A DNA stretch of 61,274 bases. It comes from a virus (Duplodnaviria; Caudoviricetes). The position numbers and the translations under genes were made by a program. Location of the stretch: the IMG/VR virus record IMGVR_UViG_3300025769_000007, positions 1-61,274 of that record; one strand, written 5' to 3'. The notes beneath the pieces were generated by a model, which saw only the letters and a list, made by a program, of their open reading frames with translations, was not told the DNA's origin and made no database searches. This document shows, piece after piece, positions 12,783 to 35,381 of this stretch; positions within the stretch are counted from its first letter, which is position 1, and each line of letters opens with the position of its first letter.

Positions 12783-15700
12783 TTATTTAGCCTCTACGTT
12801 TATATAATCTTCTTGGTATCTAGATTTAGCTCTCTGATCTACAAGCTTTATAACTTCTTCACTAATTCTAGAGTTCCTAAATATAGCTAAAATATCATCA
12901 CCTTCTATACTGTTTAGTATACCTGCACCATAAACATCAACAAGTCTATTAACGTAGTTATCCATTTTAGAATCATAAGTAGATCCTCCAGAGTTAGACG
13001 TATTCATTAACATGTCTTGATCTTTCAAAACTTCATATCCAACTCTATCTATCATATCTTTGTAAACGTAGTAAGCCTGTATAGACATATTCTTATTTAC
13101 GTTAACTCTACTTACTCTTAACCCAAAGAAAGCTAGTACCTCATACTCAGGAACCATTTCAGAATCTCTATCCATTGAATCGTAAATTCTTTTTCCTGTT
13201 TTTAAAGCTCCAGGACCGATCTTATTACCCACGTAAGACATAACACTAGCTATCTGCATGTGAGGTTTATCTGTAGGGTTAAACACCTTATTTCCATCGT
13301 TATTTATAGCGTCCCTCAATACCTTTAAAGTCATCTCCTCTCCTAAGAATGGAGCGTAAACCTTTTCTAAAACATCCATCATGGATTCTTTACCTATCTT
13401 AGTGTTAAGATCGTTAAACATAATTCTCATTATGTCTTTCGTATAACCAACACCAGATATGCTAGAGAAGTTTATGTAATCAAAGTATTTATCTTTTTGT
13501 GTTTGACCCTCAGTTTGTCTAGAGTCAAGTTCACCTTTAGATATGTAAGATATATTTCCTGAAGCGTCCCATTCAGGCATTAAAGTTCTCATCATTCTCT
13601 CCTCAATCTTCTCATCATCCTCTCCACCTAAGCCAATCATTTGACCTAAGAACTGTGCAGTATACAACTGAATACTTTCCATTAAGTACATAGTAAATAT
13701 AGTACCTGCTATTCTTGTAGCTCCAATCTTTTTAATCTTTGAATTATCACTTCCCATCTCCTCAAATCCTAGTGCTAAAGTATTCTTAGCGTTACGAACA
13801 GATTCAGCCTGGAAAGCAACGAATGATCCAACTAAAGGAGAACGACCAAGTAATCTAATTATACGAGGAACCTCGTTGTAGTTAGGGTAAAGGTTTCTAA
13901 TGTTTTTTGCAGCCATCTCTTCAGCTGTTGAAACATCTAAACCAGCCTTTATGTATCTAGCTTTTTCAGATATAAACCCAAAGATTTTCCAAATATCATC
14001 TTCAGCCTGATAAGCACTCATAGCTTTATCATCAAATAGTTTAATAAGTTTTTTACTACCTCTACCTACTTTAGCTATTTGCTTACCAACATATCCCTTT
14101 GATTCATCTAAGTATTCTGATAAGTCAAAGTTACTATCGTATACATCGTTAGCTATACCTCTTATCTCTTGAAGTGAAGCTGAAGAGTTTACCACACCTA
14201 ACTTAACTAGCTTTGAGTATAAAGCTTCAAGCTCAGCATCCTTAAGACCTCTTACTGCGTTAAAAGATGTTTTACTATCCTTATACATTCCACCTCTAAA
14301 CCCTATATGACCATTCATGGTAGCAAAAGCACTGTTACCAATAATGTTTTTAAAGTGAGTGCCAGGATTCCACACAGTCTTCATCTTCTTATTAAATAAG
14401 ACTACCTTCATGTAGAAGTTATACCACCACTTGCTATCAAAACCGTCAGAGACCTGATTCATAACAGCAAACATCTCTTCGTCAACAAACTTACCCTCTA
14501 AAGATCCAAACTTAGATCCCTTTAACTCGTAGTAGGTATCACTAGTCTGCTCGTTAGATATAAACTTGCCATTACCAACGTCATATATTTCTCTAAACAT
14601 TCTTTCGGCAGAAACTGTTCTAGCAAGCTTACTAACTGTGTTGCTATAATTAAATAAAGGGTTATCTATTTGACCCCAAAGTTCTCTAATCTCTTCAGGT
14701 ATAACCTTCTTCTCTTTAAATATAGAGCTAACTCTGTTTAAGCCATCAAGGCTAGTTGAGTTTTTCATGTTATAAAGAAACTCTTTATCTTCTGTAATCT
14801 TTCTATAGTTAACTTCAGCTTTATCTTTTATTTTATCTTTTGACATTAAAGTTATTGGTTCCCCATTTTCATCTAACCTACCCTCTTCAACATCTTTTTT
14901 GTTTTGAGACTCAACCTCTCTGTATAAGAACTCTTTAGCTTTCTTTATTATATCGTTGTCTGTCTGCTCCCATCCTTTAACCTCAAACTGTTTGTAAGAT
15001 CTTCTAACGTAGACACCCATGTTTTCATCTACAGTAAACATAGTGCTACCCTCAATCATTTCTTCTTCTATAAGGGTTCTACTAAGTTGATCTATGTGTA
15101 TTCTCATATCCATAAGAATAGACTTAATTTCTGAGTCTTCCATGGATCTAATCTCATCCATGTTATGAAGTAGATCGTTTATTTGACCTGATGTAAAGTC
15201 AGTACCTTCTAAAGCTTTCTTTAACGCTTTACTGTTTTCTGAAACTCTAAGCAACTCAGCGTTAAGATTACCTCTACTAAGTACCATTATCTCTTTAATC
15301 TCTTCGTTAGAGTGAGTGCCAAATGGCTTACCTAAAAGTTGAGACAATCTTATTTCATATTCTTTACCTTTATCAAATCCTGCTTTAGATAACTTTCCAG
15401 TTAAATACTTTCCTGCTTTATAATCAGCCTCAATAACTTTATCAGCAATATCAAAAGCTATAGTTGTTAACCCCGAAGTGTATACGTTAGTCTCTCCTTC
15501 TGCTTGAGGAGCCTGCATTCTAATATCAACAACAGGTCTAGCCATCTCAATCTTTCTTTGTCTTCTAGCTTGAGTTGTACCTTCACTTAATTTTTCTCCT
15601 GTTCTAGAATCTATTAAGAACTTATCAGCTAAGTTAAGTTCATCCCAAACTTCTGAAGCGTCAACAGACTCATCAAAGATCATTAAAGGCTCTCCCTTAA

Positions 15701-18700
15701 CAACGTATGGATAAGTAGGGTGATCTTTTATTTTATCGTCAAGCCTAGAGTCAACATATCCAGCATCTACATCTATTCTGATAGCAGATACTATAGGGTT
15801 TCCTTTTAGGTCTTTTATAATGTCTTGATTAACAGTGTTATATATTTCCTTCATAGAAGGAATACCCCACTTTTCAAATATCTTACTCTGGATAGATTTT
15901 CTTATTATATCTTTTCTAACACCAAAAGCCTGAGGCATAGATAGAACTAAATTACTAAACTCTTTTACAGATTTAATCTTAGACGTTTTTATACCTTGAT
16001 CCTTAGCTTTAGAGTCAAAAGACTTAATAGTCATCTTTTTATTAAGGAAGTCTACAACTTCTTTTTTAGTAGCTCTCTTATCTTTTATGGCTTGATCAAG
16101 TTCTTTCATAACGTAATCAAACATGTTAACGCTACCGTCAATAGATCCTGGAGCCATAGCAGTTAAGAAAACTAAACCATCACTTTCTTTAGCTGCGTTA
16201 ATCATTCTAGTCGCTGCAGCCTTATCTGAGAATGCCCAAACACCTGTGTCTTCTTGGTAAGGATAAAACACTCCACCATCAAACTCATGTTTAACTCCTG
16301 TTGGAGATACAACCATACCAGATGCTGACCTATCGGTTAACATAAGTAAAGCCTTCTGACCATTAAACTCTTTTATACTACCTCTTTTTACTTTTGATAC
16401 GTCAAAGTTTGGGTAAAATTCAGGAGCTTGAAATCTTATCTCTTGGGTTTGAGTATTATCTGGTATATTTATGTTTACAACACCAAGGTCAGAATTGTTT
16501 TCTAATTTGTCTACTTGAAATTTAATAGACTCGTTAACCTTATCTTTATCAGCTTGTATGTCTCCAACTTCAAACTCTACACCTCCAACGTTAATCTTTC
16601 TACCATTCACTAAAGCTTCAGCTAAATCTGTTCTTAAATTAGATAAAGACATCTGATTAAGATCTATAGCTTCAACATTATCAAAAGGGGATGTAATACC
16701 AAGTCTAGATAACATCGCTTTTATAACTTCTCTAATTCTAGATAGTTTAGATTGACTGTTTACAAAGTGACCATAAGCAGCGTCACCCATCATCTCAGCA
16801 AAAGCTTCCTCTATAAGTCCTTCTTCAGAGAGACCTTCGTAGTTTGCTTCAGCCCACTCAAGATAAGACCCCTTCATTCTATTACCATCCTTCATCACTC
16901 TTCTCTTAACACCACTCTCTTTAACTTCAGCCTCTATTCTTTCATATAAAGCTGGGTCAGTCTTCTTAATGAAGTCAACCATTGGGTGAATGATCTCGTG
17001 GAATAAAGTGTTACCCTGAACAGTTTCAAGGTTTACATATATAGTCTTGTTAGATCCTCTAAAGAAAGAACTCATTTTTTTAGAAGGGTCTTGTCCTATA
17101 GTTTTTAATTGCTCTTCCATAGCCTTACTGTTCCTAACAACAGTAACGTTAAGACCACCAATAGAACTAAGTAATTTAAAGGCAAAGCCTAAAACTCTTT
17201 TTCGATCTTTAGTTAAACCTTGAAACACTTCACTATCATGGTTAGGATCACTCTCGTCTAACTTGTGAATGTTATCTGAGTTAAAGTTTTTACCATAACT
17301 TGTGTTGGCCCACTCAAGACCTGTATGTATAGATGTTTTTTCACCTGCAACATTCATTATAGTTAAGGCATCTCTTTTTCTAGCGTCAACCCCCTTAGCT
17401 ACATCTCCGTTTAAAGGAACTACACGTCCATCACCAAACATCAACCCATCCTTAGACGAGAAGATAGACTCTTGTTGGAATTGGTTACCTATATTTAAAG
17501 CAGTGGCGTTATCTATTCCTGTTACCACAAGGCTTTCTTCAGCAACCCCGTTGTAAACACCTTGAACGGTATAATAAGTTGCACCAGCCTCATCTAGCAT
17601 AGACTTAAGACTCTCCATTCTAGAGACTCTCTCTTGCTCTGTTAGACCTTCTTTCTCTGAAGTTAACACGTGGTAATCGTTGTTATCTATAACCTCTTGA
17701 GGTATCTCGTCAAGAGTTTCTTTCTTTGTTTTTAAGAATAGTTTATTGTTAATAGGAAATGAACCACTACCTGTAGTGCTTTTAGGTCTTTCAGCTCTAA
17801 GTTTAGCTTTTCTATTTTCTACTATACTTTCACTATAGTTAGCTTCAAATCCTTCTCTAGTTTCTTTCTCTCTTTTATTTAAACTATATCCTTCATCTTC
17901 AGCAAATGGATGTAGTCCATCAATAAGCTGTTCATTACTTGCAGGATTATCTTTACTAAATTTTTCGCTAGAATATCTAGTACCTTCTTCATCTTTAAGC
18001 TCTACTCTTTTAGAACCATCTTTACTAGTTTTTACCTCAACAGTTTGTGAATTACCATCTCCGTCTGTTATAGTATAGTATTCTGTTCTAATAATACTGT
18101 CGTCTTGAGCTAACTCATCTGATGTAAACTCTTGTTCTGCTACTTCCTTTTTAGATGCCTTATTAGCAACCTCAAAGTCTTTCATAGCGTTCCTAGCTGC
18201 AGAAACACTTTTAAACTTACCTTGAGTTATCTCTGACGTTTGAGATACTTCGCCATTAACCTTTATACCACTTTGGTTTTGAGACTGAACCACTGTTGGC
18301 TTTCTCTTACCATCCTCCAATTGTTTCTTAACAGCGTCATACTGCTCTTGACTATCTATCTTTGTAGCGTCTACAGTTTCAGTGACTTTAGATACAGACG
18401 TGTTTTGAGATTCTACAGCGTCTACTATTTCTATATTGTTGTCATCAAGGATTTTTTTAGACTCAGCTCTAGCAGCTCTAGTGCTTTCAGTAACGTTGTA
18501 CTTAGACTTCTTACCTTCAGCCTCCATTTCAGAGATAGCACTTGCAAGACTAGAGACGTCCTCCATAGAAACCTCGTAGTCTTCTTTTTTAGCTTTAGCA
18601 TCCTCTTTTGCTTGATTGATTTTTCTAGATAAGCTAGATACAGCTTTCTCTTTTTCAAACATCTTAGCTTTAGCCTGCTGAGCATCAGGTGCACTGTGAC

Positions 18701-20621
18701 CATAAACTAAATCATCTATAGCCTGTCGAGCCACATCACTTACAGAGTAGTCTACCTTAAGTTTACCATCTCTAATTTGTTGAGCTACTTCTGGATCTTT
18801 AGCAAGGTTAATAGCCTCACCTCTAGACACCTCTCTTGTTTCACCCTTTTCGTTTGTAAAGATTACAGAGGTGTTGTCGTTGATTATGTTTAGATTTCTG
18901 CTAATATCTTTAGCACCCCTAACTGTGGTATAAGTAAGTCCACCAAATAGAGATGATATAATGGCTGTATCTACCATCCTAATAGCAAACTCTCCAGAGT
19001 CGAACTCTTCTAACCCTACAGCCGCATCAGATAGATACTGAGAACCTTCTGTTGCTACCTCAGAAGATGTTTCTATAAACATAGATTTTTTAATACCTTG
19101 GAAGTAACTATCAAGTAAAATATTAGGATCTGTAATAGCTTTAAAACCACCAGCAGTTCTAGCAGAGTTTATAATTCCTTGGGTGTACTTTTCAAAGAAA
19201 GCCTCTGAAACAGCAGTAACACCTTCACTAAAGTGTATTTGCCAATCCTTTATATCTTCACCTTTTCTTCTTCTTTCTTTAAGTTCTAAAGATTTCATAC
19301 CTCCAGCTGAGGCACCACCAAGTATAAGGGGAACTGTTCCTCCACCTGCCAAGGCTATAGATAAAGTAAAAGGAACTGCGTTAGCAATACCATTACCTGT
19401 ATTAAAGAAAGCGTCATCAAAGTTGCCGTCAAATATAGCCTTTGTAATAGATGACTCTTCAGGTATTCTAGTCTTCTCTCTTATATGCTCAGCGTAATCG
19501 CTAACCTTATTAGCATAGTATCCACCCTCTTGCATATATAAATCCCAGGCAGATAAATCTTCAAACTCTTCTGAATCAGCTAAAGGAGACGGTTTCATCC
19601 CTAAGGCTGCAGGAGCTTTCTCTAACTGCTCAAGAGCCCCAGCACCTAAATCTATAGTTGTAGCTAAAAGATTCTGCCCCCAATCACCAAACCTTCCTCC
19701 AGAATCTATCTGTCTATTCATAAAGTCTTCAACGTACTTTATAGCCTCGTAGCTTGGGTCACTTGGATCTGGAACTCTTATACTAAAGTTTACGCTTTCC
19801 CCATCTTGGGCAGCGTTAACATTATCAGTCTTCATCCAATAGTCTAAAGCTTCGTTAATAGAAGCTTCTTTGCCATCTATAGTCATGGCAGACATTCTTA
19901 TATTGTTTGAGTCTATATCTGAATCTTCTAAGGCTTTAGAAAATTCTTCAGGTGATTGAGATGATTTAGCTATGGATTGAAACAAAGCGTTATCATACTC
20001 TGTCTTTGCAGCTTTAATCTTTTCTTCGTTACCAGATAGGTATAGTTTTGAAGTAGCGTCTTTCTCAGCTAGTTCGGTTTGTTCTTGGTTGTATTCTGAC
20101 CAATTAGAAAACCTGTCGTACCACTTCTCAGCCCAAGAGGCTTGATTATCTTTCTCTTCTTGAGTCTTTTTTGTTGACTCAACCTCTTCCTCTTTATTTT
20201 TTGCTGATAAAAAGTCATCGTAATTTAAACCCTGATCTTCAAAGAAAGGTCTTTGGTCTTCTTGTCTAGCTATCTTTATCTTATCCTCGTTGGAAACACC
20301 ATCATAACTAGCTAATCTTTCTTCTAAACTAAGCTGAACGTCTTGTTCCAAAGAAGATTGACCATCTTCCGATACTGATGGAGACACCCCTGAATCCACT
20401 TGGGCACTCGCACCTTGAGGCATAGAAGAATCTTTTTTTTTTAACCTAGACTCGTATTGCTCATAGTCACCAAGGTCTATGCCTTTACCAGAAACAGTAT
20501 CGTAAAAACTTTTACGCATATCTTCTGTTTCCATTTTAGCAGAAAAGTCATCAAATGAACCAACATCAAACTTAGTTGAAATTGCTTCGTATAGTTTTTT
20601 TAAATCGTCATTCATTACCAT
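12783..20621 (-). CDS. Giant polyvalent virion (probably ejected) protein with SAM-lyase-like and zincin-like domains
   Basis: 2612 aa, last gene of the virion module; FHEIIHP...EEAFAE; VLTS...QGVY...EESLVV...FQQESI; true start probably 20615 (TAATG coupling). Confidence 0.75.
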   Translation of the reverse strand: MVMNDDLKKLYEAISTKFDVGSFDDFSAKMETEDMRKSFYDTVSGKGIDLGDYEQYESRLKKKDSSMPQGASAQVDSGVSPSVSEDGQSSLEQDVQLSLEERLASYDGVSNEDKIKIARQEDQRPFFEDQGLNYDDFLSAKNKEEEVESTKKTQEEKDNQASWAEKWYDRFSNWSEYNQEQTELAEKDATSKLYLSGNEEKIKAAKTEYDNALFQSIAKSSQSPEEFSKALEDSDIDSNNIRMSAMTIDGKEASINEALDYWMKTDNVNAAQDGESVNFSIRVPDPSDPSYEAIKYVEDFMNRQIDSGGRFGDWGQNLLATTIDLGAGALEQLEKAPAALGMKPSPLADSEEFEDLSAWDLYMQEGGYYANKVSDYAEHIREKTRIPEESSITKAIFDGNFDDAFFNTGNGIANAVPFTLSIALAGGGTVPLILGGASAGGMKSLELKERRRKGEDIKDWQIHFSEGVTAVSEAFFEKYTQGIINSARTAGGFKAITDPNILLDSYFQGIKKSMFIETSSEVATEGSQYLSDAAVGLEEFDSGEFAIRMVDTAIISSLFGGLTYTTVRGAKDISRNLNIINDNTSVIFTNEKGETREVSRGEAINLAKDPEVAQQIRDGKLKVDYSVSDVARQAIDDLVYGHSAPDAQQAKAKMFEKEKAVSSLSRKINQAKEDAKAKKEDYEVSMEDVSSLASAISEMEAEGKKSKYNVTESTRAARAESKKILDDNNIEIVDAVESQNTSVSKVTETVDATKIDSQEQYDAVKKQLEDGKRKPTVVQSQNQSGIKVNGEVSQTSEITQGKFKSVSAARNAMKDFEVANKASKKEVAEQEFTSDELAQDDSIIRTEYYTITDGDGNSQTVEVKTSKDGSKRVELKDEEGTRYSSEKFSKDNPASNEQLIDGLHPFAEDEGYSLNKREKETREGFEANYSESIVENRKAKLRAERPKSTTGSGSFPINNKLFLKTKKETLDEIPQEVIDNNDYHVLTSEKEGLTEQERVSRMESLKSMLDEAGATYYTVQGVYNGVAEESLVVTGIDNATALNIGNQFQQESIFSSKDGLMFGDGRVVPLNGDVAKGVDARKRDALTIMNVAGEKTSIHTGLEWANTSYGKNFNSDNIHKLDESDPNHDSEVFQGLTKDRKRVLGFAFKLLSSIGGLNVTVVRNSKAMEEQLKTIGQDPSKKMSSFFRGSNKTIYVNLETVQGNTLFHEIIHPMVDFIKKTDPALYERIEAEVKESGVKRRVMKDGNRMKGSYLEWAEANYEGLSEEGLIEEAFAEMMGDAAYGHFVNSQSKLSRIREVIKAMLSRLGITSPFDNVEAIDLNQMSLSNLRTDLAEALVNGRKINVGGVEFEVGDIQADKDKVNESIKFQVDKLENNSDLGVVNINIPDNTQTQEIRFQAPEFYPNFDVSKVKRGSIKEFNGQKALLMLTDRSASGMVVSPTGVKHEFDGGVFYPYQEDTGVWAFSDKAAATRMINAAKESDGLVFLTAMAPGSIDGSVNMFDYVMKELDQAIKDKRATKKEVVDFLNKKMTIKSFDSKAKDQGIKTSKIKSVKEFSNLVLSMPQAFGVRKDIIRKSIQSKIFEKWGIPSMKEIYNTVNQDIIKDLKGNPIVSAIRIDVDAGYVDSRLDDKIKDHPTYPYVVKGEPLMIFDESVDASEVWDELNLADKFLIDSRTGEKLSEGTTQARRQRKIEMARPVVDIRMQAPQAEGETNVYTSGLTTIAFDIADKVIEADYKAGKYLTGKLSKAGFDKGKEYEIRLSQLLGKPFGTHSNEEIKEIMVLSRGNLNAELLRVSENSKALKKALEGTDFTSGQINDLLHNMDEIRSMEDSEIKSILMDMRIHIDQLSRTLIEEEMIEGSTMFTVDENMGVYVRRSYKQFEVKGWEQTDNDIIKKAKEFLYREVESQNKKDVEEGRLDENGEPITLMSKDKIKDKAEVNYRKITEDKEFLYNMKNSTSLDGLNRVSSIFKEKKVIPEEIRELWGQIDNPLFNYSNTVSKLARTVSAERMFREIYDVGNGKFISNEQTSDTYYELKGSKFGSLEGKFVDEEMFAVMNQVSDGFDSKWWYNFYMKVVLFNKKMKTVWNPGTHFKNIIGNSAFATMNGHIGFRGGMYKDSKTSFNAVRGLKDAELEALYSKLVKLGVVNSSASLQEIRGIANDVYDSNFDLSEYLDESKGYVGKQIAKVGRGSKKLIKLFDDKAMSAYQAEDDIWKIFGFISEKARYIKAGLDVSTAEEMAAKNIRNLYPNYNEVPRIIRLLGRSPLVGSFVAFQAESVRNAKNTLALGFEEMGSDNSKIKKIGATRIAGTIFTMYLMESIQLYTAQFLGQMIGLGGEDDEKIEERMMRTLMPEWDASGNISYISKGELDSRQTEGQTQKDKYFDYINFSSISGVGYTKDIMRIMFNDLNTKIGKESMMDVLEKVYAPFLGEEMTLKVLRDAINNDGNKVFNPTDKPHMQIASVMSYVGNKIGPGALKTGKRIYDSMDRDSEMVPEYEVLAFFGLRVSRVNVNKNMSIQAYYVYKDMIDRVGYEVLKDQDMLMNTSNSGGSTYDSKMDNYVNRLVDVYGAGILNSIEGDDILAIFRNSRISEEVIKLVDQRAKSRYQEDYINVEAK

Positions 20622-22111
20622 TCAAGTTTTTCTGGAGCCCCACCACCTTGTTGAGATGATTCTAAATTAGAGTATTCTATTATTTTAGCACCTGTACTTC
20701 CCTTCTCAAATTTATTCTTAAATAAAGAAGAGTCTAGCCTACCTAAAGGAACTAAGAATGAAGATCCTTTGTATTCCATTACAGCTACAGGCTTATTATC
20801 CTCAGTTAAAGCAATTCTTTGAAGATTAGCTTCAATACTATCTGAGTCAGAGTCGTACCAGTTCTTGTTATATAAGAACGTTCCTGTAGTTTCTTTGTCC
20901 CCAACATTCTGACCTTCAACACCTTGTAAATCTTCTAAAAATACTGAAACTTTAGTTACATCTCTTACGACAGCACTCTTATTATCATCAAGTTTAACTG
21001 AAATATTATTTATGTTTTTAAGTTGTTCTGACGGACTCTCTAGTAAAGATATAGAATCCTTAGATAAGACTTCTTCTTCTGCCTTTTTAGTTGAAGGTTT
21101 AGAACCTCTTCGAGGGCCTCTGTTTTCGTACTCTCTATCAGAAATCTTTTTACCTAAATACTCAGCGTACTGGTCAGATAACTCTTTATTAAAGTTTTCA
21201 CTTTGAGGATCTAACTGTCCAATTAACTCTTCATCAGGGGATGTAATACCACCAACAACAGAGTCATTATTTGGATTAATATAAGCTTCTAAGAAAAAAG
21301 CCTCCTTACCAGTCATAGATTCTCCGTTTACGATAAGTTGCTCAGTATTATATATCCTTTCAGCGTTTTTATCATCATGCCTATTATAAGCATTCACCTT
21401 TAACTTTGTAGTTATTTTATCTGTAGTCTGAGATTTTTGATCGTCTGATATACTTAAGTATTCCCAACCATCTTTTCCTATAGCTTTTCCTTCACGATTT
21501 TTATCATCTTTCTCGAAGTAATCGTCTTTAGACATATAAAAGGGAACAAACTCACTCTCGTTAACCATAGACTGAGAGTCTATAGGATAAGCCTCTAAAG
21601 CTTGATCTAAGTCCATCTCACCGCTATTTACAGCCTCTTGAACTTGACTCCAGTTGTACTTATAAAGGTACTCACCATCTTCAGTCAACTTAAGGTTATC
21701 AGCCTTTCCTGCAGTAACAAGATTATTTAAAGATGTTAAGTCATTACTTATGCTGTCATACTTAGATTTATTAGCAGTAAGATCTCTTTCTAGGCTTAGT
21801 TGTTGATTTTTAGCCTCGTTATCTCCATCATATATGGCCATAGCTTTTTCATTGGCAAAACCTTGGTATTCACCAACTTGCGATTGAAACTGATCAACCA
21901 AGAAAGGATCCATTCCTTCTACAGAATAATCTTTTATTTGAGCTTTAGAACCTTTTCTTCTAGCTTCTTTCTTTTTATCAGCAAGTTGTTGCTTCCTAAG
22001 TTCCAACTCTTCTTTTTGAATAGCGAGTTGCTGCCTAGTAGCCTCTTCTTTTAAAAGATCACGATTGTTTTTAAAAACTGTACCTGTGAAAAATAAACCT
22101 TCTCCAGCCAT
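20615..22111 (-). CDS. Probable internal virion / ejection protein
   Basis: 498 aa, N-terminal coiled coil, middle of a three-gene block after the tail genes. Confidence 0.6.
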   Translation of the reverse strand: MAGEGLFFTGTVFKNNRDLLKEEATRQQLAIQKEELELRKQQLADKKKEARRKGSKAQIKDYSVEGMDPFLVDQFQSQVGEYQGFANEKAMAIYDGDNEAKNQQLSLERDLTANKSKYDSISNDLTSLNNLVTAGKADNLKLTEDGEYLYKYNWSQVQEAVNSGEMDLDQALEAYPIDSQSMVNESEFVPFYMSKDDYFEKDDKNREGKAIGKDGWEYLSISDDQKSQTTDKITTKLKVNAYNRHDDKNAERIYNTEQLIVNGESMTGKEAFFLEAYINPNNDSVVGGITSPDEELIGQLDPQSENFNKELSDQYAEYLGKKISDREYENRGPRRGSKPSTKKAEEEVLSKDSISLLESPSEQLKNINNISVKLDDNKSAVVRDVTKVSVFLEDLQGVEGQNVGDKETTGTFLYNKNWYDSDSDSIEANLQRIALTEDNKPVAVMEYKGSSFLVPLGRLDSSLFKNKFEKGSTGAKIIEYSNLESSQQGGGAPEKLEW

Positions 22112-23413: not shown

Positions 23414-26400
23414 TTATTTATTACTAAGCTCACTCTTGTCTACATCTACGTTTGCAGCGTACAAATTAAATTTGTATTTAGACTGATACCAGTGAGATGT
23501 AAGGATTGTTTTAAGGTAGTGACCTTTTAGCTTCTCACCGTCTATAAGACCCTCCTTAACTATAAAGTAAAACTTATTACCTTGTATATCGTTGTAATTA
23601 TCTGATATAAATTCAACCCTTTCCTGTGTCACGTTGTAAACCCATCCTGCGTGTTTAGTTTCTCCTGTCTTAACATCCATACAATGCAAAGAGTATTCAC
23701 ATGGGAAAACAGAAGACCTAGACCTAGATGATGTTCCATTTTTAGCTACAAAAATTCCTCTAGGTGGATTTACTTTCTGAATATTTAAATTATTTATATA
23801 AAACTCAGGTTGATTTTCTTCAGATCTTATATATAAATAAGGGTCAATGTTTTTGTCACCAGAGTTTAACTCAATTTCATGATTTTGTAAGTAATTTGTA
23901 TTGTCAATTGAAATAGTCTGAAATGACGAACCTAGTTTACCAGATTGATTAACTCTATCTCCAATTCTAAAAGACAAAGAAACTTTACTTCTGTCTAATA
24001 CATCTATTAAGTTTAATCTAAAAGAAATTATATACTTAGAATTAGACTTAAAGTCTATAGTAGAACTTGTCCTTACTTGAGATGAAGAATTTTGTTTGTC
24101 AAAATACAAAACGTTACCACTTCTTTTTTTGTTTTTTTGAACTTTAACTCCTGAATCTACAACAGTCCAATCAGAAGAGTTCGCAAAATTACCTTTAGAA
24201 GATAAGATGTCTTTACCTTTATTGAGGCCACCATTAAGATCAAAAACTTCTTCAAACTTAAAATCTTCTCTAATATCTAAAATTCCGTACACTCCACCAG
24301 GAATTATATTAGAAACAGTAGTAGATTTACTACCCATAAAAGGAAGACTGTTAGATTTAAAATCACCTTTAAGGATAAAATTAGAACCATAACTACTTGC
24401 ACTAAACATACCTAATCCAAAAATATTAGAAGCGTCTCCATCAAAATCACCTTGAAAGTCACCATACTCATTTACGTTAAACTTGCTTGGAGCAAAAGGA
24501 ATTTGAGAATATTGAACGCCCTCCTTTGTTTTATAATCTATAACATCAATTCTATTGTTTTTTGACCTGTAGTTAACGGAGTTGTCTAAAATAACTTTTT
24601 GTTTTGTTAAGATACTTTTAACTACATTGTACTGAGGACTTAAATTTTCTGCATTATAGAACCTAATTAAATCACCTGGAGATAAATCTTTATAAAAGTT
24701 AGAGCTTGGAGATCCATAAAGGCAGTAAGGAGAGTCTTCTTTCGTTGATATAGTTCCGTCAACTTTTTTATAACCTATCTGAGTAGATACAACAGAGTCA
24801 TAAGAGTTATTGTATTGACCCATATTAGTAGACATGTTAGTTAAAAGCTTTGTGTCACTTTCTAACGATATGCTATTATAGGTTTTTACAGATGATGGGT
24901 CTGAGTTAAACGGAAACTCTATATTAGAGTTGTATCTAACACCATAGAAAGTATTAAAATTACTTTTATTTTCAGTGTTGTGTCTGTATATTTTACCATT
25001 TTTATACGTAACAAACTGTCTATTTATTTTGCCATAAAACTCTGGTTTATAGCTATAAAAAGATGTCCACTTTTTTAAAGTGTCATTAAAAGCTATAGTT
25101 TTAGCAGGGTCAAAAACTGCAGCATCTTGATTACTAACTAAACTGTAAGACTCGTCAAAATTAACAGAATCAAATCCCCAAAATCCAGAATTATTATAAT
25201 CTTCAGTTTTTAATATAGCTGGTAGAGTAACTATATACTCATCATACTTAGGATCGTAGCCAGCAACAATTTTAAGGCTTTCAAATTCTTGATCTATATA
25301 CACTTGACCTTTATCTCTAATATAATCAGACAATCCATAGTCAGAGATTCTTGTAATACCATCTCCGCCAAGCCTTAATATAGAACCTCTCTTTATGTCT
25401 ACAAAATAAAACCTATCATTATTCTCAACTATACTTTCAGGGTTGAGGCTACAACCATTCTCTGCAGAATACACCTGAGCATAATCAGCAAGTATATCTT
25501 TAGATAGCGTTAGATTAGAGTTACCATCAGCATAATTAACTATATTTTTACCAACCAAAGCTCTACCTACTCTATTCTCATGAAATATCAAAAGGTCATC
25601 ACCTTTAATCATTAAAGATTGTATTGACCCAAAGTCTTGATTGTAGTCGTAGTATGGAGATGTTGCCATATCAAAAGTACTAAGACCATTAAAATTAGCC
25701 GTACCTTGAAAAACATCAGAGTAGTATACTGAGGCTGACAACCTTCTCTCTTCAGAATAAGGATTTACTATATTGACTCTACCCTTATCCCAGTTGTCAG
25801 AATTATAGAAATCTGTTAGGTAATAACTCTCGCAAGCAAAAGCAACTTGTTCAACCCCCGAAGTTAGGTTCCCATCACTTTCAACACGTTTTTCATGATA
25901 AGGAACCATAACCCTTCTTCTAGTGTAAACATCACCATGAAGTAAAGTTCCAGCAGCATAGTTTGTAGTTTGGTTTCCACTATCATCAATAGGTCCATTT
26001 AGACCATCTATAGCTGTAACCTCCATTCTAGACTCTTCGTCAAAAAAGTAATCAGAACCTTGCCCCTGATGAGACCTAAAATCAGTTCCTGGATTCTCTA
26101 TCTCAAACTTTTCTCCTACCTCATAAAACAAACCAGAAACCTCTGATTGTATAGATTTTTTAGGTCTATATATTTCTACTATAAGTCTATTATAGCCGTT
26201 ATGTGAAAAATCATAGTCAGTATGATCAACATCAGCATGATCAATAGCTATACTACCATCAATAGTTCCATTATTTGCTGTAGAAAAATCTATATCGTTA
26301 CCAGCATCTGTAGGACTATCTATAACAATGTAAAATCCTGGAATACGATCAGATCCACCAACAGCATCCTGAATCTCCTCTTGAGTGTAAAAATCATAAG

Positions 26401-29275: not shown

Positions 29276-32200
29276 TTAATCAAATGGGACACCATTATTT
29301 ATTGTAAACTCAAGTGCTTTACCAATATGAGAACCAAACCAAAATATTCCTCCACTTGTAGACTCAGCAAATCTTTTTAAATAAATATCATCTGAAAATG
29401 TTACATTATCACCTTCATTTTGGTTATAATAAAGTAATATCTGAACCATGCCTATATCAAAAAACTCACTTAAGGAATCTACATTAATTACTGGATCAAC
29501 AAAATTTACACCTGCACTAATAGTAGGATTTGGTGCTGTAGAAGTTAACTCAGTAGTGTTTTCGTCAAAGTTAGCAAATATAATATGCATAACTTGAGTT
29601 GGATAACCACCTCCTGGTATCTCAAACTCAATAGTTTGACCATTAGTAAACTTGTTTGTTATATAGTAACAGAAATTATTTGTAGGGCTATGTGGTTGAT
29701 CACGCAAAGCGTCCAATTCTTGTTCGGTTATAAAAACTATGTTTTCGCCATAAAAATCTTCACCATTGATTGTCCATTCTGGCTTTACACCACAAAAAGC
29801 ACCTGCTGTGTGAAAATATGAAGGAGTTGCCCATTCAGAAGTGATCCCAACCTCTGGACCCTTTACACAATAAGTTCCTGCAACAACATTATCTCCCAAA
29901 AGTATATTATCTAAAACAGGATCGAAACCAAGCCCAGCATTCATATTCTCTATAGTAAATATAGCGTTATCAAGTTGAAATTGTAAATCATCAATGTACA
30001 GTTGTGCAGCATCAAGGTTTCCTTCTAAAGTGGATACAGTTAATTGATGCGATTGCTGCATAGTTTCTAAAGCAGAAATATCTGCATTTGAAGCTAAGAC
30101 ATATAGGTTGTATTGATTATAAAGCTGAGTCGTAACAGCGTTAGAAAAATCTGTAACAGAGTCTACATAATCTGAAAGTCTATCTCCTAGGGGAGTAAAC
30201 GCAGTAGTCTCTGAATAGCCAGGAACGATTAATGATAGATAATTCTCATACTGTGACTCACCTATAAACTCCTTAAAGGTATCTAAACCAGAATCTTGCC
30301 ACCCTATAACATCAGAGTTAATTAAATTAAATAATTCATTAAAGGACGTTTGATGTTCTGGAACTAAATTATTTAAATTAAAAGCAAACATCTCTTGAGC
30401 ATCATTACCCACTCGAATATTTGTGATTCTATATTCAATATTTACATTCGGAACAGGAGGAAATACAATAACAATATTAGCGTATCTATCTAAATAATCA
30501 CCTTGATACCCTACGTTATTATTAACAACAGTAAAGGTATGTAAAAAAGGTTCTGGGTTATTTGATCCTCCAGGAGTTAAATTGTATTGTTCATCAATGG
30601 CAACCTCTTCAGATGAATTATAATTACCTGTAGTATCCCATTGATTAGTTATCTGCACACTTATATTATTTGGTATTGACGCAGAACCAGATGTAGATGT
30701 ATTAACAACTTCAAAAGTTATTGACAAAGTTATTTCAGCACCATTTACCCAAGCTGCTGAGTTTTGAAAGGAACTGTAAGGAAGTCTAAAAGCTCCATAA
30801 GAACTTCCTACACTAGAAATTGCTTTTAAGTGGCCGTTTTGTTCAAATAAAAATGAAGGTAATGAATTTACAGAGTTTCCAGCAGTAAGATATGCATTAT
30901 CATAAAAAGTCCACTCATTTTCATAATCAGAAGTTGGAGAAAAATCCTCCTCATAAATAATTTGATTATCTATATTTAAAGCGTTATATGCTTCTAGACT
31001 TAGATTATATGATAGAGTTGTATCGATATAAATTTGATTAAAATTATCAAGTATAGACAATATTATAGCATCAGATATAGCGTTAGCATTAAGCTGTTCC
31101 TGCAACGCATCTATTTGCTCTCCAAGTTCGTAAACGTTAGTCTGAAGATTAACTATTGTGGCATCTTGATCCGAAACCTGAGTGGTAAGGGAAGTAATAT
31201 CTACTTCTAAAGCTGCTACTTCAGCATTATGCTGTGCATTAAGATCAGCTAAATCTTGATCAAACTGTGCTTGCAAAGCGTATTGTGCAGCTTGGTCAGC
31301 AGCTTCTGCATCATCTAAAGCTTGTTCATGTTGAGCAATAAGGACAGCCACTGCATGATTATGATCCAATGTTAATTGAGCAATCTCTGCAGCATGTTCA
31401 TCATCTTGATCCTCCATGTCTTGAACATACTGAGCTAACATTTGATTAAGAGCATCCACAAGATCCTCAAGGTTATTATTAGCATTTTCAAGTAATGCTA
31501 TCTCAGCCCCTAACTCAGCCTCTAAAGCTGCTAATTCACCTCCATGAGCCACATTTATAGCTATAATAGCGTCTGCTAATGTTACTATCTCTGCATTAAG
31601 TTCAGCTATTGTTATTACTTGAGATGCTGTTAAATCCTGTTCAGCTTCTAAATCGTTTACAGCTATATTTAATTGAGACTGAACGTAATTTAACTGATCA
31701 CCAACTGACTCTAAATCTTCATTCAAACTAGCTATCTCTATAAGCATAGCGTCATTTTGCTCTTGATAAAAATCAAGCTGCTGACCCAGATTACTAATAG
31801 TACTAACGTGATCAGAAATAACACTTTCAGCTAATTCTAAATTAGACTCAGTCTCTCCTAGTTCTGCCAATGCTGTTGCTGTTAAATCTATCTGATTAGC
31901 AAGATCCTCCTGTAAATTGTTATTAGTAATATTTAGTTCAATTAAAGTCTGTTGTTGCTCACCATATATTTGAATTTGATGTGCTAATTCTTCTTGTAAG
32001 CTATTAAAATCATTAATTATAGAGTCTGTAATTTCGATGGAATTTTCAACTATTTGATAACTATTAAGAGTCATCATTGTTCCGTTTCCAAAAACTTGCA
32101 AAACATCAGATTCTCCAACATCAAATCCTTCTGCTTGACTTAAAATATTATTTATGCTATGATAACTATACCCTAAGGCTAACTTAAATTTAACACCAAC

Positions 32201-33381: not shown

Positions 33382-34605
33382 TTATATTTTTGGAGATTGC
33401 TTAAATGCTTTCCTAGAAACCTGCATAGCAGCCTCTTTATTAAAGTTCATCATCCTAGCTCTAGCTAATCTCTTCTCGTTATAGTAAGCTCTTTTAGCCA
33501 TTTGTTTCTCGTTAGCAGGAATACCACGTTTTCTCTGAATGTACTTGTAGTACATATAAGACCTTAAAGCTTCTTCGCAAAACTTATGTATCTTAGGTAC
33601 ATCACCTGAAGAACCTAATTGAAGTAAAGATTGGCTATCTACAGAAAAAAATGCAGATGAGCCATCATACAAATTACTATCAAACTCTCCATCAGTACTT
33701 AGTAAATCTAAAGGATCTGAAGTAAGATTACTAATTGTTATAATAATATTATTTTGATCATCAACTGCTGTTATGTTAGAGTCGTTAGGAGAAACATGAT
33801 ACCTTGGGTGACCATTATTTATAACATCAGTTAAAGCTTCTGCAACGTCAATGCTTGAGCCATCAAATAAATTAACATAAACCTCTGTAGATAAAGGATT
33901 ACTACTTAAATTATCGTAATCATATATTATTGCTCCAGTCGAATCCATTACAGCAGTATCTTTAAAAGTATAAGTAATCACACCTCCAGACCTAGATGGT
34001 ATTTTAATTGTTGTATCGTTAGAAATACCAGCAAGAAGATTTGAACTTGCAAGAGGAGTAGCTATATTAAATTTAACAATATGATCCTCTCCAGGTGTAG
34101 CGGTAATGCCATCAGATATATACTCCATAAACACTGTTTTACCACCAACATCTGAAGAGAAGTTTATAGTACCATCTTGTCTATTTATTCTGTAATAACC
34201 TAAAGTATTTTTTCCTCCACCTATACCAAACTTTTTTCCTATATCTGTATGATAATAAGGATTGTTTTCATCATAAGCTTCATCCCCAACTTGAGACGCT
34301 ACACTAGCATCTAACACTAAGTTAGGGTTACTACCTAAGGAGTGAAATTCATCATCATCTCCTCTATATCCAATTCTATTTATTTTTACGTAATCAGCAG
34401 GTAAAGTACACTGAAGTGTTGTAGAGTTTACAGCAAGTGTAGTAGTCTTAACCCTTTGCTCAACATCAAACGTAAGCTCTCTTAAGCCTTGTAAGGCTAA
34501 CAATCTTAGCTGATATACACTAGCTTCTTTTTCGTAAGATGTGTCGTCAATCATTAACTGAAAATCGTTAACAATTTCTTCTATTGTTGTGTAATCTATT
34601 GCCAT
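33382..34605 (-). CDS. Tail ring / head-tail adaptor protein with internal insertion
   Basis: GLRELTFD, INFSSD...MEYISDG and IHKFCEEAL motifs of crAss-like ring proteins. Confidence 0.7.
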   Translation of the reverse strand: MAIDYTTIEEIVNDFQLMIDDTSYEKEASVYQLRLLALQGLRELTFDVEQRVKTTTLAVNSTTLQCTLPADYVKINRIGYRGDDDEFHSLGSNPNLVLDASVASQVGDEAYDENNPYYHTDIGKKFGIGGGKNTLGYYRINRQDGTINFSSDVGGKTVFMEYISDGITATPGEDHIVKFNIATPLASSNLLAGISNDTTIKIPSRSGGVITYTFKDTAVMDSTGAIIYDYDNLSSNPLSTEVYVNLFDGSSIDVAEALTDVINNGHPRYHVSPNDSNITAVDDQNNIIITISNLTSDPLDLLSTDGEFDSNLYDGSSAFFSVDSQSLLQLGSSGDVPKIHKFCEEALRSYMYYKYIQRKRGIPANEKQMAKRAYYNEKRLARARMMNFNKEAAMQVSRKAFKQSPKI

Positions 34606-34607
34606 AA

Positions 34608-35351: not shown

Positions 35352-35373
35352 TATTGTATATTTTATTCCCTAG

Positions 35374-35381
35374 CAAAAGTA
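35374..35381 (-). promoter_or_regulatory. -7 promoter box TACTTTTG for tail genes
   Basis: Consensus match between a terminator and ATG 35351. Confidence 0.65.

What the first reader, a model, noticed from the sequence alone, without database searches (positions are those of the whole stretch)
17308..17685. SAM-lyase-like domain embedded in the giant ejected protein
Seen: YHVLTSEKEGLTEQERVSRMESLKSMLDEAGATYYTVQGVYNGVAEESLVVTGIDNATALNIGNQFQQESIF. Known: T3-type SAM lyases show a hydrophobic strand ending S/T, a helix (xxNxxRxxxL), G-x-Y/W, E-x-S/T-hydrophobic and Q-E/D-S/C-V/I in this order. They deplete SAM and counter type I restriction-modification and BREX, and are usually small stand-alone early proteins. 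Inference: here the domain is packaged and injected with the DNA, giving anti-defence before any phage transcription.
Basis: partly seen in the sequence, partly recalled or inferred. Interest (0 to 1): 0.82.

Follow-up and report, generated by a model that had tools for sequence, protein, structure and literature searches.

The report
SAM-lyase domain inside giant phage protein
About 130 residues in the middle of a 2,612-residue late protein of a complete phage genome have the fold and key residues of the phage T3 enzyme that destroys S-adenosylmethionine, so this anti-restriction enzyme may travel inside the virus particle instead of being made after infection.

Summary
The quoted peptide is aa 983-1054 of a 2,612-aa minus-strand ORF (12783-20621).

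**Fold and residues**
- An AlphaFold model of aa 956-1132 (pLDDT 86.5) matches one solved fold well: T3 SAM lyase, Z 12.7 and 11.6. The next unrelated chain scores 6.8, or 5.8 in an unbiased search.
- The model has T3's monomeric barrel: nine strands and two main helices.
- T3's E68, Q94 and D95 align with E1028, Q1050 and E1051. The G-x-Y motif is present.

**Family**
- By Pfam thresholds the domain is DUF3293 (26-27 bits, cut-off 25). It does not reach S-AdoMet_lyase (22.6 bits, cut-off 28).
- Stand-alone relatives match both families and bridge to T3.

**Distribution and context**
- The domain is widespread: 697 clusters. Of the best 150, 98 are proteins of 1,000 aa or more, and sampled ones carry polyvalent-protein domains.
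- The ORF ends the virion-gene block. Its C-terminal part is homologous to a virion protein of Cellulophaga phage phi18:3 that was detected by mass spectrometry.

**Not shown**
- SAM cleavage, packaging and ejection are all inferred.
- A family-wide Asn is Arg here, and two close relatives lack G, Y and E.
- A few injected copies may be too slow to deplete SAM.

The parts
12783..20621 (-). Giant ORF of 2,612 aa (P0001). It is the last gene of the minus-strand late (virion) block, and its start overlaps the stop of the upstream ORF 20615-22111.
   Evidence: PHROG 22602 'virion structural protein' matches aa 1754-2366 at E 2e-26.
17313..17702 (-). SAM-lyase-like domain (DUF3293 / T3-type fold), aa 974-1103.
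   Evidence: Model residues 19-148 align to T3 SAM lyase residues 4-153 (Z 12.7, rmsd 2.7 A, 124 aligned). Coordinates were checked by translation. Pfam DUF3293 scores 26.0 bits and S-AdoMet_lyase 22.6 bits.
17532..17561 (-). GVYNGVAEES. G1021 and Y1023 correspond to Svi3-3 G56/Y58. E1028 corresponds to T3 E68 / Svi3-3 E69. S1030 corresponds to Svi3-3 S71.
   Evidence: Residue roles come from passages of PMC7877911.
17466..17474 (-). QES. Q1050, E1051 and S1052 correspond to T3 Q94/D95/C96 and Svi3-3 Q104/E105/S106.
16722..17225 (-). Region just downstream of the domain (aa 1133-1300) with an invariant HExxH (HEIIH, aa 1208-1212, window 16986-17000) and a conserved EEAFAEMMGDAA segment. It is probably a zincin-like metallopeptidase module.
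   Evidence: Invariant H76, E77 and near-invariant H80 of the segment in a 17-sequence alignment. HEIIH checked. The model has pLDDT 57-86 over its first ~160 residues. Best VIA matches are nearly all zincins but weak, Z <= 6.9. No Pfam hit.
13083..15362 (-). C-terminal conserved module (aa 1754-2513), shared with virion proteins of cultured phages.
   Evidence: PHROG 22602. tblastn to Cellulophaga phage phi18:3 gp123 over aa 1863-2513, 24% identity, E 4e-27. gp123 is annotated 'virion structural protein, annotation based on experimental MS/MS proteomics analysis'. Atlas look-alikes are viral clusters, some carrying LPD38 (61%) or LPD39 (55%) (lead only).

Best explanation
Residues about 974-1103 of the 2,612-aa late protein form a T3-type S-adenosylmethionine lyase domain. 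It is a monomeric nine-stranded barrel with two outer helices.

The proposed mechanism follows T3 gp0.3 and Svi3-3. Tyr1023 would pack against the sulfonium, and Glu1028 and Gln1050 would hold the amino group of SAM. Water would be excluded, so the carboxylate attacks the gamma-carbon and gives methylthioadenosine plus homoserine lactone.

The carrier is a phage polyvalent protein. Its parts are a long N-terminal region, the lyase domain, a probable zincin-like peptidase and a conserved C-terminal virion module. It is probably built into the particle and delivered with the DNA. The lyase would then be present in the cell from the first moment of infection and would act against SAM-dependent defences (type I/III restriction, BREX).

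Shown: fold, homology, conserved residues, gene position, and homology of the C-terminal module to an MS-detected virion protein. Inferred: catalysis, packaging of this particular protein, ejection and the defence target.
For: **Fold.**
- The AF2 model was built without templates from an 11-sequence alignment: pLDDT 86.5, pTM 0.80, nine strands and two main helices.
- Foldseek PDB: the top five hits are T3 SAM lyase chains (best E 3.4e-4, TM 0.49/0.58), followed by Svi3-3.
- VIA-align: 8bb1_E Z 12.7 (rmsd 2.7 A, 124 of 147 residues) and 7ock_L Z 11.6 (rmsd 2.7 A, 123 residues). The next unrelated chain has Z 6.8.
- In a Foldseek-independent search of 48,161 chains, only 7ock_L reaches Z >= 8; the second best is 5.8.
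- T3 SAMase is described as a monomeric nine-stranded barrel with two helices (bioRxiv 10.1101/2023.02.27.530186, section 11 read).

**Sequence.**
- Pfam DUF3293 scores 26.0 bits (cut-off 25) and S-AdoMet_lyase E 1.1e-4 on the excised segment.
- Of 27 stand-alone relatives found with the domain profile, 27 match DUF3293 and 24 match S-AdoMet_lyase, best E 1.4e-22.
- Their profile finds T3 SAM lyase as its only PDB hit at E 2e-4. hhalign to T3 gp0.3 gives probability 92.6%, E 4.7e-7.
- T3 gp0.3 itself is PF23780 at 143 bits.

**Residues.**
- T3 E68/Q94/D95 align with E1028/Q1050/E1051, and G-C-Y aligns with G-V-Y.
- In 164 domains of 149 representative relatives, G occurs in 151, Y in 146, E in 117, Q in 159 and the S of QES in 148.

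**Carrier.**
- The window is a complete virus record with terminal repeats.
- The gene order is TerL, portal, virion proteins, giant ORFs.
- The C-terminal module is homologous to MS-proven phi18:3 gp123.
- Flavobacterium phage elemoE gp88 (3,694 aa) is annotated 'structural protein; DUF3293' and has the domain at aa 1311-1443.
- Of 20 sampled giant relatives, 19 carry DUF3293, 6 ART-PolyVal and 4 LPD22; LPD37 and LPD38 occur in one each.
Against: - Pfam's curated S-AdoMet_lyase cut-off is not reached (22.6 bits against 28). A six-frame search of the whole genome with PF23780 found nothing at E <= 1.
- On the whole protein, DUF3293 also falls below its cut-off (21.2 against 25).
- Direct searches of PDB sequences with the domain or with the close-clade profile did not find any SAM lyase.
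- hhalign of the close-clade profile against T3 is weak: probability 16%, E 0.0016.
- The family's nearly invariant Asn (N in 147 of 164 domains) is Arg998 here.
- Two close homologues, P0010 and P0011 (81% and 80% identical in the searched 161-aa region, aa 960-1120), have D, S and K in place of G, Y and E. P0036 also lacks these residues in its matching copy. The domain can therefore be kept without the catalytic set.
- Among embedded domains in proteins of 1,000 aa or more, only 61 of 99 keep G, an aromatic residue, E and Q together, and 26 have Q for the Glu.
- No activity, virion proteomics or ejection data exist for this protein.
- Quantity: Svi3-3 turns over 9.5 per second and T3 makes about 10,000 SAMase molecules per cell. 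Internal virion proteins of this size are usually present in a few to a few tens of copies (recalled, not from a call). Bulk SAM depletion by injected protein alone would therefore be slow.
Confidence: 0.5

Rival explanations
1. The domain is an active lyase of this family, but its substrate is a low-abundance sulfonium compound rather than bulk SAM. An example is the type III CRISPR signal SAM-AMP, or a related defence messenger. A few injected enzyme molecules would be enough to destroy such a signal.
For: - The same superfamily contains SAM-AMP lyases, including a phage-encoded one fused to an N-terminal domain and proposed as an anti-CRISPR. Only the catalytic Glu and the Gln are structurally conserved between SAM and SAM-AMP lyases, so these residues do not fix the substrate (PMC12255297, sections 21 and 24 read).
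- The nearest TerL relatives infect Bacteroidota: of 132 records, 68 are named Flavobacterium, 15 Cellulophaga, 3 Bacteroides and 2 Tenacibaculum. SAM-AMP signalling was described in Bacteroides fragilis (abstract of PMC12255297).
- The quantity argument against bulk SAM depletion favours a scarce substrate.
Against: - The model is much closer to T3 SAM lyase (Z 12.7) than to the trimeric Svi3-3 type (Z 5.5), to which the SAM-AMP lyase is said to be closely related.
- No residue-level test of an AMP pocket was possible.
Confidence: 0.15
2. The domain is a catalytically weak or dead descendant of a SAM lyase, kept as a binding or structural module. It might bind SAM, bind a host protein (as T3 SAMase binds and inhibits MetK independently of catalysis), or serve as a folded spacer in the virion protein.
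For: - Close relatives P0010 and P0011 have lost G, Y and E together while staying about 80% identical, and P0036 has lost E and the acidic residue of QES.
- Arg998 replaces the family's conserved Asn.
- 26 of 99 embedded domains in giant proteins have Gln for the Glu. Svi3-3 E69Q is nearly inactive.
- The catalytically dead T3 E68Q/Q94A mutant still has anti-BREX activity through MetK binding.
Against: - 32 of 37 domains in the close clade, including this one, keep G, Y, E and Q. S1030, E1051 and S1052 are kept in 36 of 37. This is hard to explain without selection on the pocket.
- According to the authors, T3's MetK-binding residues are conserved only among close T3 relatives.
Confidence: 0.2
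3. The domain is an active SAM lyase but works mainly in the cell that produces the phage, late in infection and as part of the abundant unassembled protein. In this reading the giant protein is a fixed structural part that does not enter the next host.
For: The gene lies in the late block. Ejection is not shown by any search. Late proteins are made in far higher numbers than are packaged (general knowledge).
Against: - SAM depletion late in infection has no obvious benefit.
- Polyvalent proteins encoded among virion genes are predicted to be injected (PMC5512222, passages).
- The domain co-occurs with ART-PolyVal and LPD domains typical of such proteins.
Confidence: 0.12
4. The resemblance is a generic ferredoxin-like alpha-beta sandwich with chance motif matches, not homology to SAM lyases.
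For: Many ferredoxin-like chains score Z 4-7. The Pfam S-AdoMet_lyase cut-off is not reached.
Against: - There is a gap of about 6 Z units between T3 SAM lyase and all other folds, with 124 of 147 residues aligned, including the barrel-closing C-terminal strands.
- Sequence bridges to T3 run through 27 stand-alone relatives.
- The family-wide invariant residues coincide with the residues shown by experiment to matter.
Confidence: 0.03

Closest known systems
Phage T3 gp0.3 SAM lyase ('SAMase'; PDB 8BB1, 7OCK; Pfam PF23780)
   Same: Same fold over nearly the whole enzyme (Z 12.7, 124 of 147 residues). Both have nine strands and two helices, as in the monomeric barrel described for T3. The aligned residues are G-x-Y, Glu (E68/E1028), Gln (Q94/Q1050) and an acidic residue (D95/E1051).
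   Different: - Identity is 16-18%, and the PF23780 cut-off is not reached.
- The loop between G-x-Y and the Glu is shorter: 4 residues here against 10 in T3.
- The domain sits in the middle of a 2,612-aa late protein, whereas T3 gp0.3 is a 152-aa early protein.
- T3's N-terminal MetK-binding tail is outside the aligned region.
Svi3-3 SAM lyase (PDB 6ZM9, 6ZNB)
   Same: The same functional residues are present in the same order: G56, Y58, E69, S71, Q104, E105, S106 (passages of PMC7877911). The core is ferredoxin-like.
   Different: The structural match is only moderate (Z 5.2-5.5, 84-85 residues). Svi3-3 is a trimer with active sites between subunits. This domain has extra C-terminal strands that close a barrel, as in T3.
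Pfam DUF3293 (PF11697), function unknown
   Same: The domain passes its cut-off when scanned as a segment (26.0 bits) and in six-frame search (27.4 bits). 19 of 20 sampled giant relatives and 27 of 27 small relatives match it.
   Different: DUF3293 has no assigned function. No paper in the searched library mentions it. Here it is linked to the SAM lyase fold and residues.
Polyvalent proteins of phages and conjugative elements (Iyer et al. 2017, PMC5512222)
   Same: It is a giant multidomain protein encoded among virion genes. Relatives carrying the same domain also carry ART-PolyVal, LPD22, LPD37, LPD38, GGDEF and HD domains. One close homologue carries PF18838, which the Atlas output names LPD23.
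   Different: The main text of that paper contains none of the words SAMase, S-adenosylmethionine, AdoMet or DUF3293. Its supplementary domain lists could not be seen.
Clostridium botulinum SAM-AMP lyase and the phage enzyme the authors name AcrIIIB4 (PMC12255297)
   Same: Same superfamily and the same Glu/Gln pair. The phage version is also fused to another domain.
   Different: Those enzymes are trimeric and PII-like, and are specific for SAM-AMP. No SAM-AMP lyase chain is named in the rows listed from the fold searches.
Virion-packaged effectors and anti-restriction proteins (T4 Alt, T4 IPI, P1 DarA/DarB, N4 virion RNA polymerase)
   Same: Same proposed logic: an effector packaged in the head and injected with the DNA (introduction of PMC5512222, passages).
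   Different: None of these is a SAM lyase. Delivery of this protein is not shown.

Membership tests
T3-type SAM lyase (Pfam PF23780 S-AdoMet_lyase) | Score above Pfam's curated gathering cut-off (28 bits) | tested here: not met
   22.6 bits, E 1.1e-4, on aa 960-1120. The family is not listed for the whole protein. The six-frame genome search gave no match at E <= 1. T3 gp0.3 scores 143 bits.
T3-type SAM lyase (Pfam PF23780 S-AdoMet_lyase) | Monomeric nine-stranded beta barrel with two outer helices | tested here: met
   The model has nine strands and two main helices. Z is 12.7 (rmsd 2.7 A, 124 residues) to 8bb1_E and 11.6 (rmsd 2.7 A, 123 residues) to 7ock_L, covering residues 4-153 of the enzyme. 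This is a predicted structure, not a solved one.
T3-type SAM lyase (Pfam PF23780 S-AdoMet_lyase) | Conserved Glu that holds the SAM amino group (T3 E68, Svi3-3 E69) | tested here: met
   E1028 aligns with T3 E68. This column is E in 117 and Q in 34 of 164 relatives' domains.
T3-type SAM lyase (Pfam PF23780 S-AdoMet_lyase) | Conserved Gln followed by an acidic residue (T3 Q94-D95, Svi3-3 Q104-E105) | tested here: met
   Q1050-E1051. Q occurs in 159 of 164 domains.
T3-type SAM lyase (Pfam PF23780 S-AdoMet_lyase) | Gly-x-Tyr (Svi3-3 G56, Y58) | tested here: met
   G1021-V-Y1023. G occurs in 151 and Y in 146 of 164 domains.
T3-type SAM lyase (Pfam PF23780 S-AdoMet_lyase) | Cleaves SAM to methylthioadenosine and homoserine lactone | not testable with these tools
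   This needs an enzyme assay.
T3-type SAM lyase (Pfam PF23780 S-AdoMet_lyase) | MetK binding through the N-terminal tail and the beta4-beta5 loop (a feature of the T3 clade only) | not tested
   T3 residues 1-11 lie outside the hhalign alignment. The authors say these residues are conserved only among close T3 relatives.
DUF3293 (Pfam PF11697) | Score above the curated cut-off (25 bits) | tested here: met
   26.0 bits on the segment and 27.4 bits in six-frame search. The score is 21.2 bits when the whole 2,612-aa protein is scanned.
DUF3293 / SAM-lyase superfamily | Nearly invariant Asn at the start of helix 1 (the 'xxNxxR' motif) | tested here: not met
   The residue is Arg998 here. The column is N in 147 of 164 distant relatives' domains. 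In the 37 close-clade domains it is R in 27, K in 6 and N in 2.
Svi3-3-type trimeric SAM lyase (PII-like) | Trimer with active sites at subunit interfaces | tested here: inconclusive
   Z is 5.2-5.5 to 6znb and 6zm9 over 84-85 residues. Oligomeric state was not predicted.
SAM-AMP lyase | Extended pocket for the AMP moiety; specificity for SAM-AMP | not tested
   Only the Glu and Gln are shared between the two enzyme types, so the residues seen here do not discriminate.
Polyvalent proteins (Iyer et al. 2017) | Several domains of disparate activity in one large polypeptide | tested here: inconclusive
   The lyase-like domain is secure. The HExxH region has only weak fold matches to zincins, Z <= 6.9, from a model of pLDDT 54.6. 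The other regions have no assigned domain. Relatives do carry ART-PolyVal and LPD domains.
Polyvalent proteins (Iyer et al. 2017) | Encoded among virion or packaging genes of a phage | tested here: met
   TerL 41763-43856, portal 39367-41766, virion-protein PHROGs 33382-39306 and giant ORFs down to 12783, all on the minus strand.
Polyvalent proteins (Iyer et al. 2017) | Packaged in the virion and injected with the DNA | not testable with these tools
   The only support is homology of aa 1863-2513 to MS-detected phi18:3 gp123.

The most novel reading that the evidence does not exclude
DUF3293 is the SAM-lyase domain, and its main home is in giant virion-delivered polyvalent proteins found in hundreds of protein clusters, rather than in small early proteins. 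Phages of Bacteroidota and others would then inject a ready-made lyase with their DNA. It would disarm SAM-dependent defences (type I/III restriction, BREX) or SAM-derived immune signals before any phage gene is transcribed. The adjacent zincin-like peptidase might release the domain from the carrier after entry.
Probability: 0.3. Interest if true: 0.8.

Novelty: new variant of a known kind. Interest (0 to 1): 0.66.

Why it matters
**What is known.** SAM lyases are known as small early phage proteins that switch off SAM-dependent restriction and BREX. Known packaged anti-restriction proteins (DarA/DarB, IPI) work in other ways.

**What would be new.** A SAM lyase built into a virion protein would be a new way of delivering this counter-defence. 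It would act before the phage genome is exposed to transcription-dependent steps.

**Wider reach.**
- The result gives a function to an uncharacterised Pfam family, DUF3293.
- The domain recurs in many giant phage proteins: 697 clusters at 50% identity, and 98 of the best 150 hits are 1,000 aa or longer.
- It adds metabolite or signal degradation to the activities of polyvalent proteins.

**Testability.** The idea can be tested with a cultured relative, Flavobacterium phage elemoE gp88, and with a simple enzyme assay.

Tried and rejected
**Searches that gave nothing useful**
- phmmer of the domain against PDB sequences gave only chance hits, E 0.66 and above.
- The close-clade profile A1 against PDB sequences gave only HSP82 at E 1. 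The link to T3 by sequence appeared only with the profile of small relatives.
- A PF23780 six-frame search of the genome found nothing.
- Pfam on the other three parts of the protein gave nothing below E 0.006.
- PADLOC and NCBIfam were not searched.

**Weak or lead-only results**
- The model of aa 1133-1500 was poor (pLDDT 54.6; residues 191-368 below 50). Only its first ~160 residues were informative, and no match reached Z 8.
- Atlas look-alikes are leads only.

**Ideas considered and set aside**
- An embedded domain might be unable to work because Svi3-3 needs a trimer. This was set aside because T3 SAMase is a monomeric barrel and the model has that architecture.
- No complex prediction was run. 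Oligomeric state and any contact with the peptidase region are therefore open.

**Tools and sources that were closed or missing**
- A paper on the elemo phages was not found in the library. Whether 'structural protein' for gp88 rests on proteomics is therefore unknown.
The domain lists of Iyer et al. 2017 may name this domain under another label.

**Literature**
- No paper in the searched library holds DUF3293, or PF11697, PF23780 or S-AdoMet_lyase.
- 'Polyvalent protein' together with 'SAM lyase' occurs in one paper, and only as unrelated mentions.
- 'SAM lyase' with 'virion' gave 12 papers. None is on a packaged SAM lyase, judged by title and the start of the abstract.
- Two further searches, each found 14 papers (one search listed 13 of them). 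Their titles and abstract starts show none either.
Full report
**1. The observation**

The window is a complete virus record of 61,274 bases with direct terminal repeats. The finding's coordinates lie inside a 2,612-codon ORF on the minus strand, 12783-20621. The plus-strand frame there is full of stops. The given range 17308-17685 equals aa 979-1105.

**2. What the domain is: sequence**

Pfam on the whole protein gives only a sub-threshold DUF3293 match: 21.2 bits against a cut-off of 25. On the excised aa 960-1120 the results are:
- DUF3293: 26.0 bits, above its cut-off.
- S-AdoMet_lyase (PF23780): 22.6 bits, E 1.1e-4, below its cut-off of 28.

A six-frame search of the genome confirms one DUF3293 site at 27.4 bits and finds no PF23780 site at E <= 1. 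T3 gp0.3 itself is PF23780 at 143 bits and does not match DUF3293.

A word-indexed search with aa 960-1120 found 35 proteins of 1,802-3,757 aa among 290 candidates. Identity in the region is 36-96%. I aligned 11 domain segments (A1; 11 of the 36 available, chosen to span the identity range).

The A1 profile was searched against 1.84 billion representative proteins. It found 697 clusters at E <= 0.001, 47 at 1e-10 and 8 at 1e-30. Of the best 150:
- 98 are 1,000 aa or longer;
- 25 are 200-999 aa;
- 27 are under 200 aa.

The profile was built from embedded copies, so this ranking favours embedded forms.

The 27 small proteins (A2) behave as a bridge to T3:
- All 27 match DUF3293, and 24 of 27 match S-AdoMet_lyase, best E 1.4e-22.
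- Their profile has a single PDB hit, T3 SAM lyase (7ock, 8bb1), at E 2e-4.
- hhalign to T3 gp0.3 gives probability 92.6%, E 4.7e-7.

The direct comparison of A1 with T3 is weak: probability 16%, E 0.0016. The domain alone and A1 found no SAM lyase among PDB sequences. The sequence link to T3 is therefore real but transitive.

**3. What the domain is: structure**

AlphaFold2 without templates, run on A1, gave pLDDT 86.5 and pTM 0.80. The model has nine strands and two main helices, plus two short N-terminal helices.

| Search | Best match | Next best unrelated |
|---|---|---|
| Foldseek vs PDB | five T3 SAM lyase chains, best E 3.4e-4, TM 0.49/0.58; then Svi3-3 | not applicable |
| VIA-align on Foldseek's top chains | 8bb1_E Z 12.7, rmsd 2.7 A, 124 residues of a 147-residue chain; 7ock_L Z 11.6, rmsd 2.7 A, 123 residues | Z 6.8 (Svi3-3 scores Z 5.5) |
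| VIA-align on 48,161 chains, no Foldseek | 7ock_L Z 11.6, the only chain at Z >= 8 | Z 5.8 |

The alignment covers model residues 19-148 and enzyme residues 4-153.

In the viral library the best matches are:
- a Flavobacterium phage elemoC 'structural protein';
- an 'ART-PolyVal-like' protein;
- many small uncharacterised phage proteins;
- several proteins annotated S-adenosyl-L-methionine hydrolase;
- one 'DUF3293 domain-containing protein'.

The T3 paper describes the enzyme as a monomeric nine-stranded barrel with two outer helices, unlike the trimeric Svi3-3 (bioRxiv 10.1101/2023.02.27.530186, sections 10 and 11 read). This removes the main structural objection to an embedded domain, because no trimer is needed.

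**4. Functional residues**

Passages of Guo et al. (PMC7877911) name the Svi3-3 residues that bind SAM:
- G56, Y58, E69 and Q104;
- also S50, S71, E105 and S106.

Passages of the two papers show that T3 E68, and not E67, is the equivalent Glu. They also show that the single mutants E68Q and Q94A reduce activity, and that the double mutant E68Q/Q94A abolishes it.

In the alignments:
- T3 G-C-Y pairs with G1021-V-Y1023;
- E68 pairs with E1028;
- Q94-D95-C96 pairs with Q1050-E1051-S1052.

An HMM of A2 was run on all 185 collected proteins. It gave 164 domains in 149 representatives, with these counts at the key columns:

| Column | Count in 164 domains |
|---|---|
| G of G-x-Y | 151 |
| Y | 146 |
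| Glu | E 117, Q 34 |
| S of E-x-S | 135 |
| Gln | 159 |
| Acidic residue of QES | E 118, D 23 |
| S of QES | 148 |

The residues that experiments single out are thus the ones the family conserves, and this protein has all of them.

Results that weigh against activity:
- The family's conserved Asn (147 of 164 domains) is Arg998 here. In the 37 close-clade domains that column is R in 27 and K in 6.
- P0010 and P0011, 81% and 80% identical in the searched 161-aa region (aa 960-1120), carry D, S and K for G, Y and E.
- P0036's matching copy carries T, E, K and Q-K-S at these positions.
- G, an aromatic residue, E and Q occur together in 26 of 27 domains in small proteins. In proteins of 1,000 aa or more they occur together in only 61 of 99.

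**5. The carrier protein and its genome**

PHROG scans give the following map.
- Plus strand, early/replication block: Erf (4191), exonuclease (4760), DnaB-like helicase (7070), resolvase (10983), PhoH (11832).
- Minus strand, late block: TerL 41763-43856, portal 39367-41766, and several 'virion structural protein' families at 33382-39306.
- The late block continues with ORFs of 1,366, 1,946, 419 and 498 aa, and ends with the 2,612-aa ORF.

tblastn of the giant protein against 50,697 phage records matched 81 records, none over 80% of its length:
- aa 1863-2513 match Cellulophaga phages phi18:3, phi19:3 and phi13:2 at 24% identity, E about 1e-26;
- aa 968-1581 match Flavobacterium elemo phages at 23.5% identity, E 3e-8.

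phi18:3 gp123 is annotated as a virion protein from MS/MS proteomics, but it lacks the lyase-like domain. elemoE gp88 (3,694 aa, 'structural protein; DUF3293') has the domain at aa 1311-1443 with the full motif.

The lyase segment is the shared module among the 149 representatives. It has BLAST hits in 138 of them, whereas the other four segments of the protein have hits in only 3-8.

I scanned 20 of the 98 giant representatives. They were taken from the higher-ranked ones outside the query's own clade and were limited by the 50,000-residue cap. The Pfam matches were:
- DUF3293 in 19;
- ART-PolyVal in 6;
- LPD22 in 4;
- DUF7178 in 3;
- S-AdoMet_lyase in 2;
- LPD37, LPD38, GGDEF, HD_5 and HD in one each.

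These are the polyvalent proteins of Iyer et al. 2017. Those authors predict that such proteins are packaged and injected (PMC5512222, passages).

Just downstream of the domain is an invariant HExxH with a conserved acidic segment. The model of that region is of low confidence. Its best structural neighbours are zincin peptidases at Z <= 6.9.

TerL relatives infect Bacteroidota, so the host is probably a member of that phylum.

**6. How it most likely works, and the limits**

The most likely reading is an active SAM lyase domain carried into the cell by a virion protein.

- Shown: fold, homology, residues, gene position, and homology of the C-terminal module to a protein found in virions.
- Inferred: catalysis, packaging of this protein, ejection and the defence target.

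There is a quantitative caveat. Svi3-3 turns over 9.5 per second at 1 mM SAM, and T3 makes about 10,000 enzyme molecules per cell. Proteins of this size are, as far as I recall, present in a few to a few tens of copies per particle. Injected enzyme alone would then lower a normal SAM pool only over many minutes, unless the host cell is very small or the enzyme is much faster. This keeps two rivals alive:
- a scarce substrate such as the SAM-AMP defence signal;
- a binding role like the catalysis-independent MetK inhibition by T3 SAMase.

**7. Novelty**

The parts are known: the SAM lyase family, DUF3293, polyvalent proteins and packaged anti-restriction proteins. The combination was not found in print in the searched library.
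- No paper holds DUF3293, PF11697 or PF23780.
- The main text of Iyer et al. has no SAM-related term.
- The searches combining SAM lyase with polyvalent or virion terms gave nothing relevant.

Supplements could not be read, and databases already show DUF3293 inside giant phage proteins (the annotation seen). I therefore class the finding as a new variant of a known kind.

Confidence:
- about 0.93 that the domain is a homologue of T3-type SAM lyase;
- about 0.55 that it cleaves SAM;
- about 0.5 for the full best explanation.

Noticed in passing
window 16722-17225 (-), aa 1133-1300 of the giant ORF: There is an invariant HExxH (HEIIH at 16986-17000) and a conserved EEAFAEMMGDAA segment directly after the lyase-like domain. 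Weak fold matches (Z <= 6.9) are almost all to zincin metallopeptidases. This region may cut the carrier or host proteins.
   Followed up: partly
window 23414-29254 (-) and 29276-33376 (-): Two more giant ORFs (1,946 and 1,366 aa) lie in the same late block. The first matches PHROG 14478 'virion structural protein' (E 1e-78). The second has no PHROG match.
   Followed up: no
proteins P0010 and P0011 (close homologues): The lyase-like domain is 80-81% identical to the window's, but G, Y and the key Glu are replaced together by D, S and K. These are natural 'active-site-dead' variants. P0010 comes from a 54-kb contig.
   Followed up: partly
proteins P0128, P0057, P0051, P0052 (representatives): These proteins of 589-881 aa carry 3-5 tandem copies of the DUF3293 / SAM-lyase-like domain.
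   Followed up: no
domain column of E1028 across relatives: A sizeable subgroup has Gln for the key Glu: 34 of 164 domains, 26 of them in proteins of 1,000 aa or more. This is the substitution that nearly inactivates Svi3-3, and it may mark a different activity.
   Followed up: no
window 44102-44677 (-): An ORF of 191 aa matches phage co-chaperonin GroES families (E 9e-18), between the terminase gene and the lysis genes.
   Followed up: no
window 41763-43856 (-): The terminase large subunit's relatives are all phages of Bacteroidota or uncultured viruses. They include records whose organism names begin with IAS, Azobacteroides and Bacteroides. The best match is an uncultured Caudoviricetes genome of 60,850 bases at 47.6% identity.
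   Followed up: partly
window 57626-58063 (+): A 145-aa ORF matches a short segment (about 40 residues) shared by 38 PHROG families; most of the 25 listed are tail-fibre or tail proteins. It lies on the opposite strand from the virion block.
   Followed up: no
BFVD entry H6VUC5: A 164-aa protein of Escherichia phage phiKT is labelled 'phage tail tape measure protein' but matches the lyase-like model (E 9e-7, TM 0.53/0.57). It is probably misannotated.
   Followed up: no
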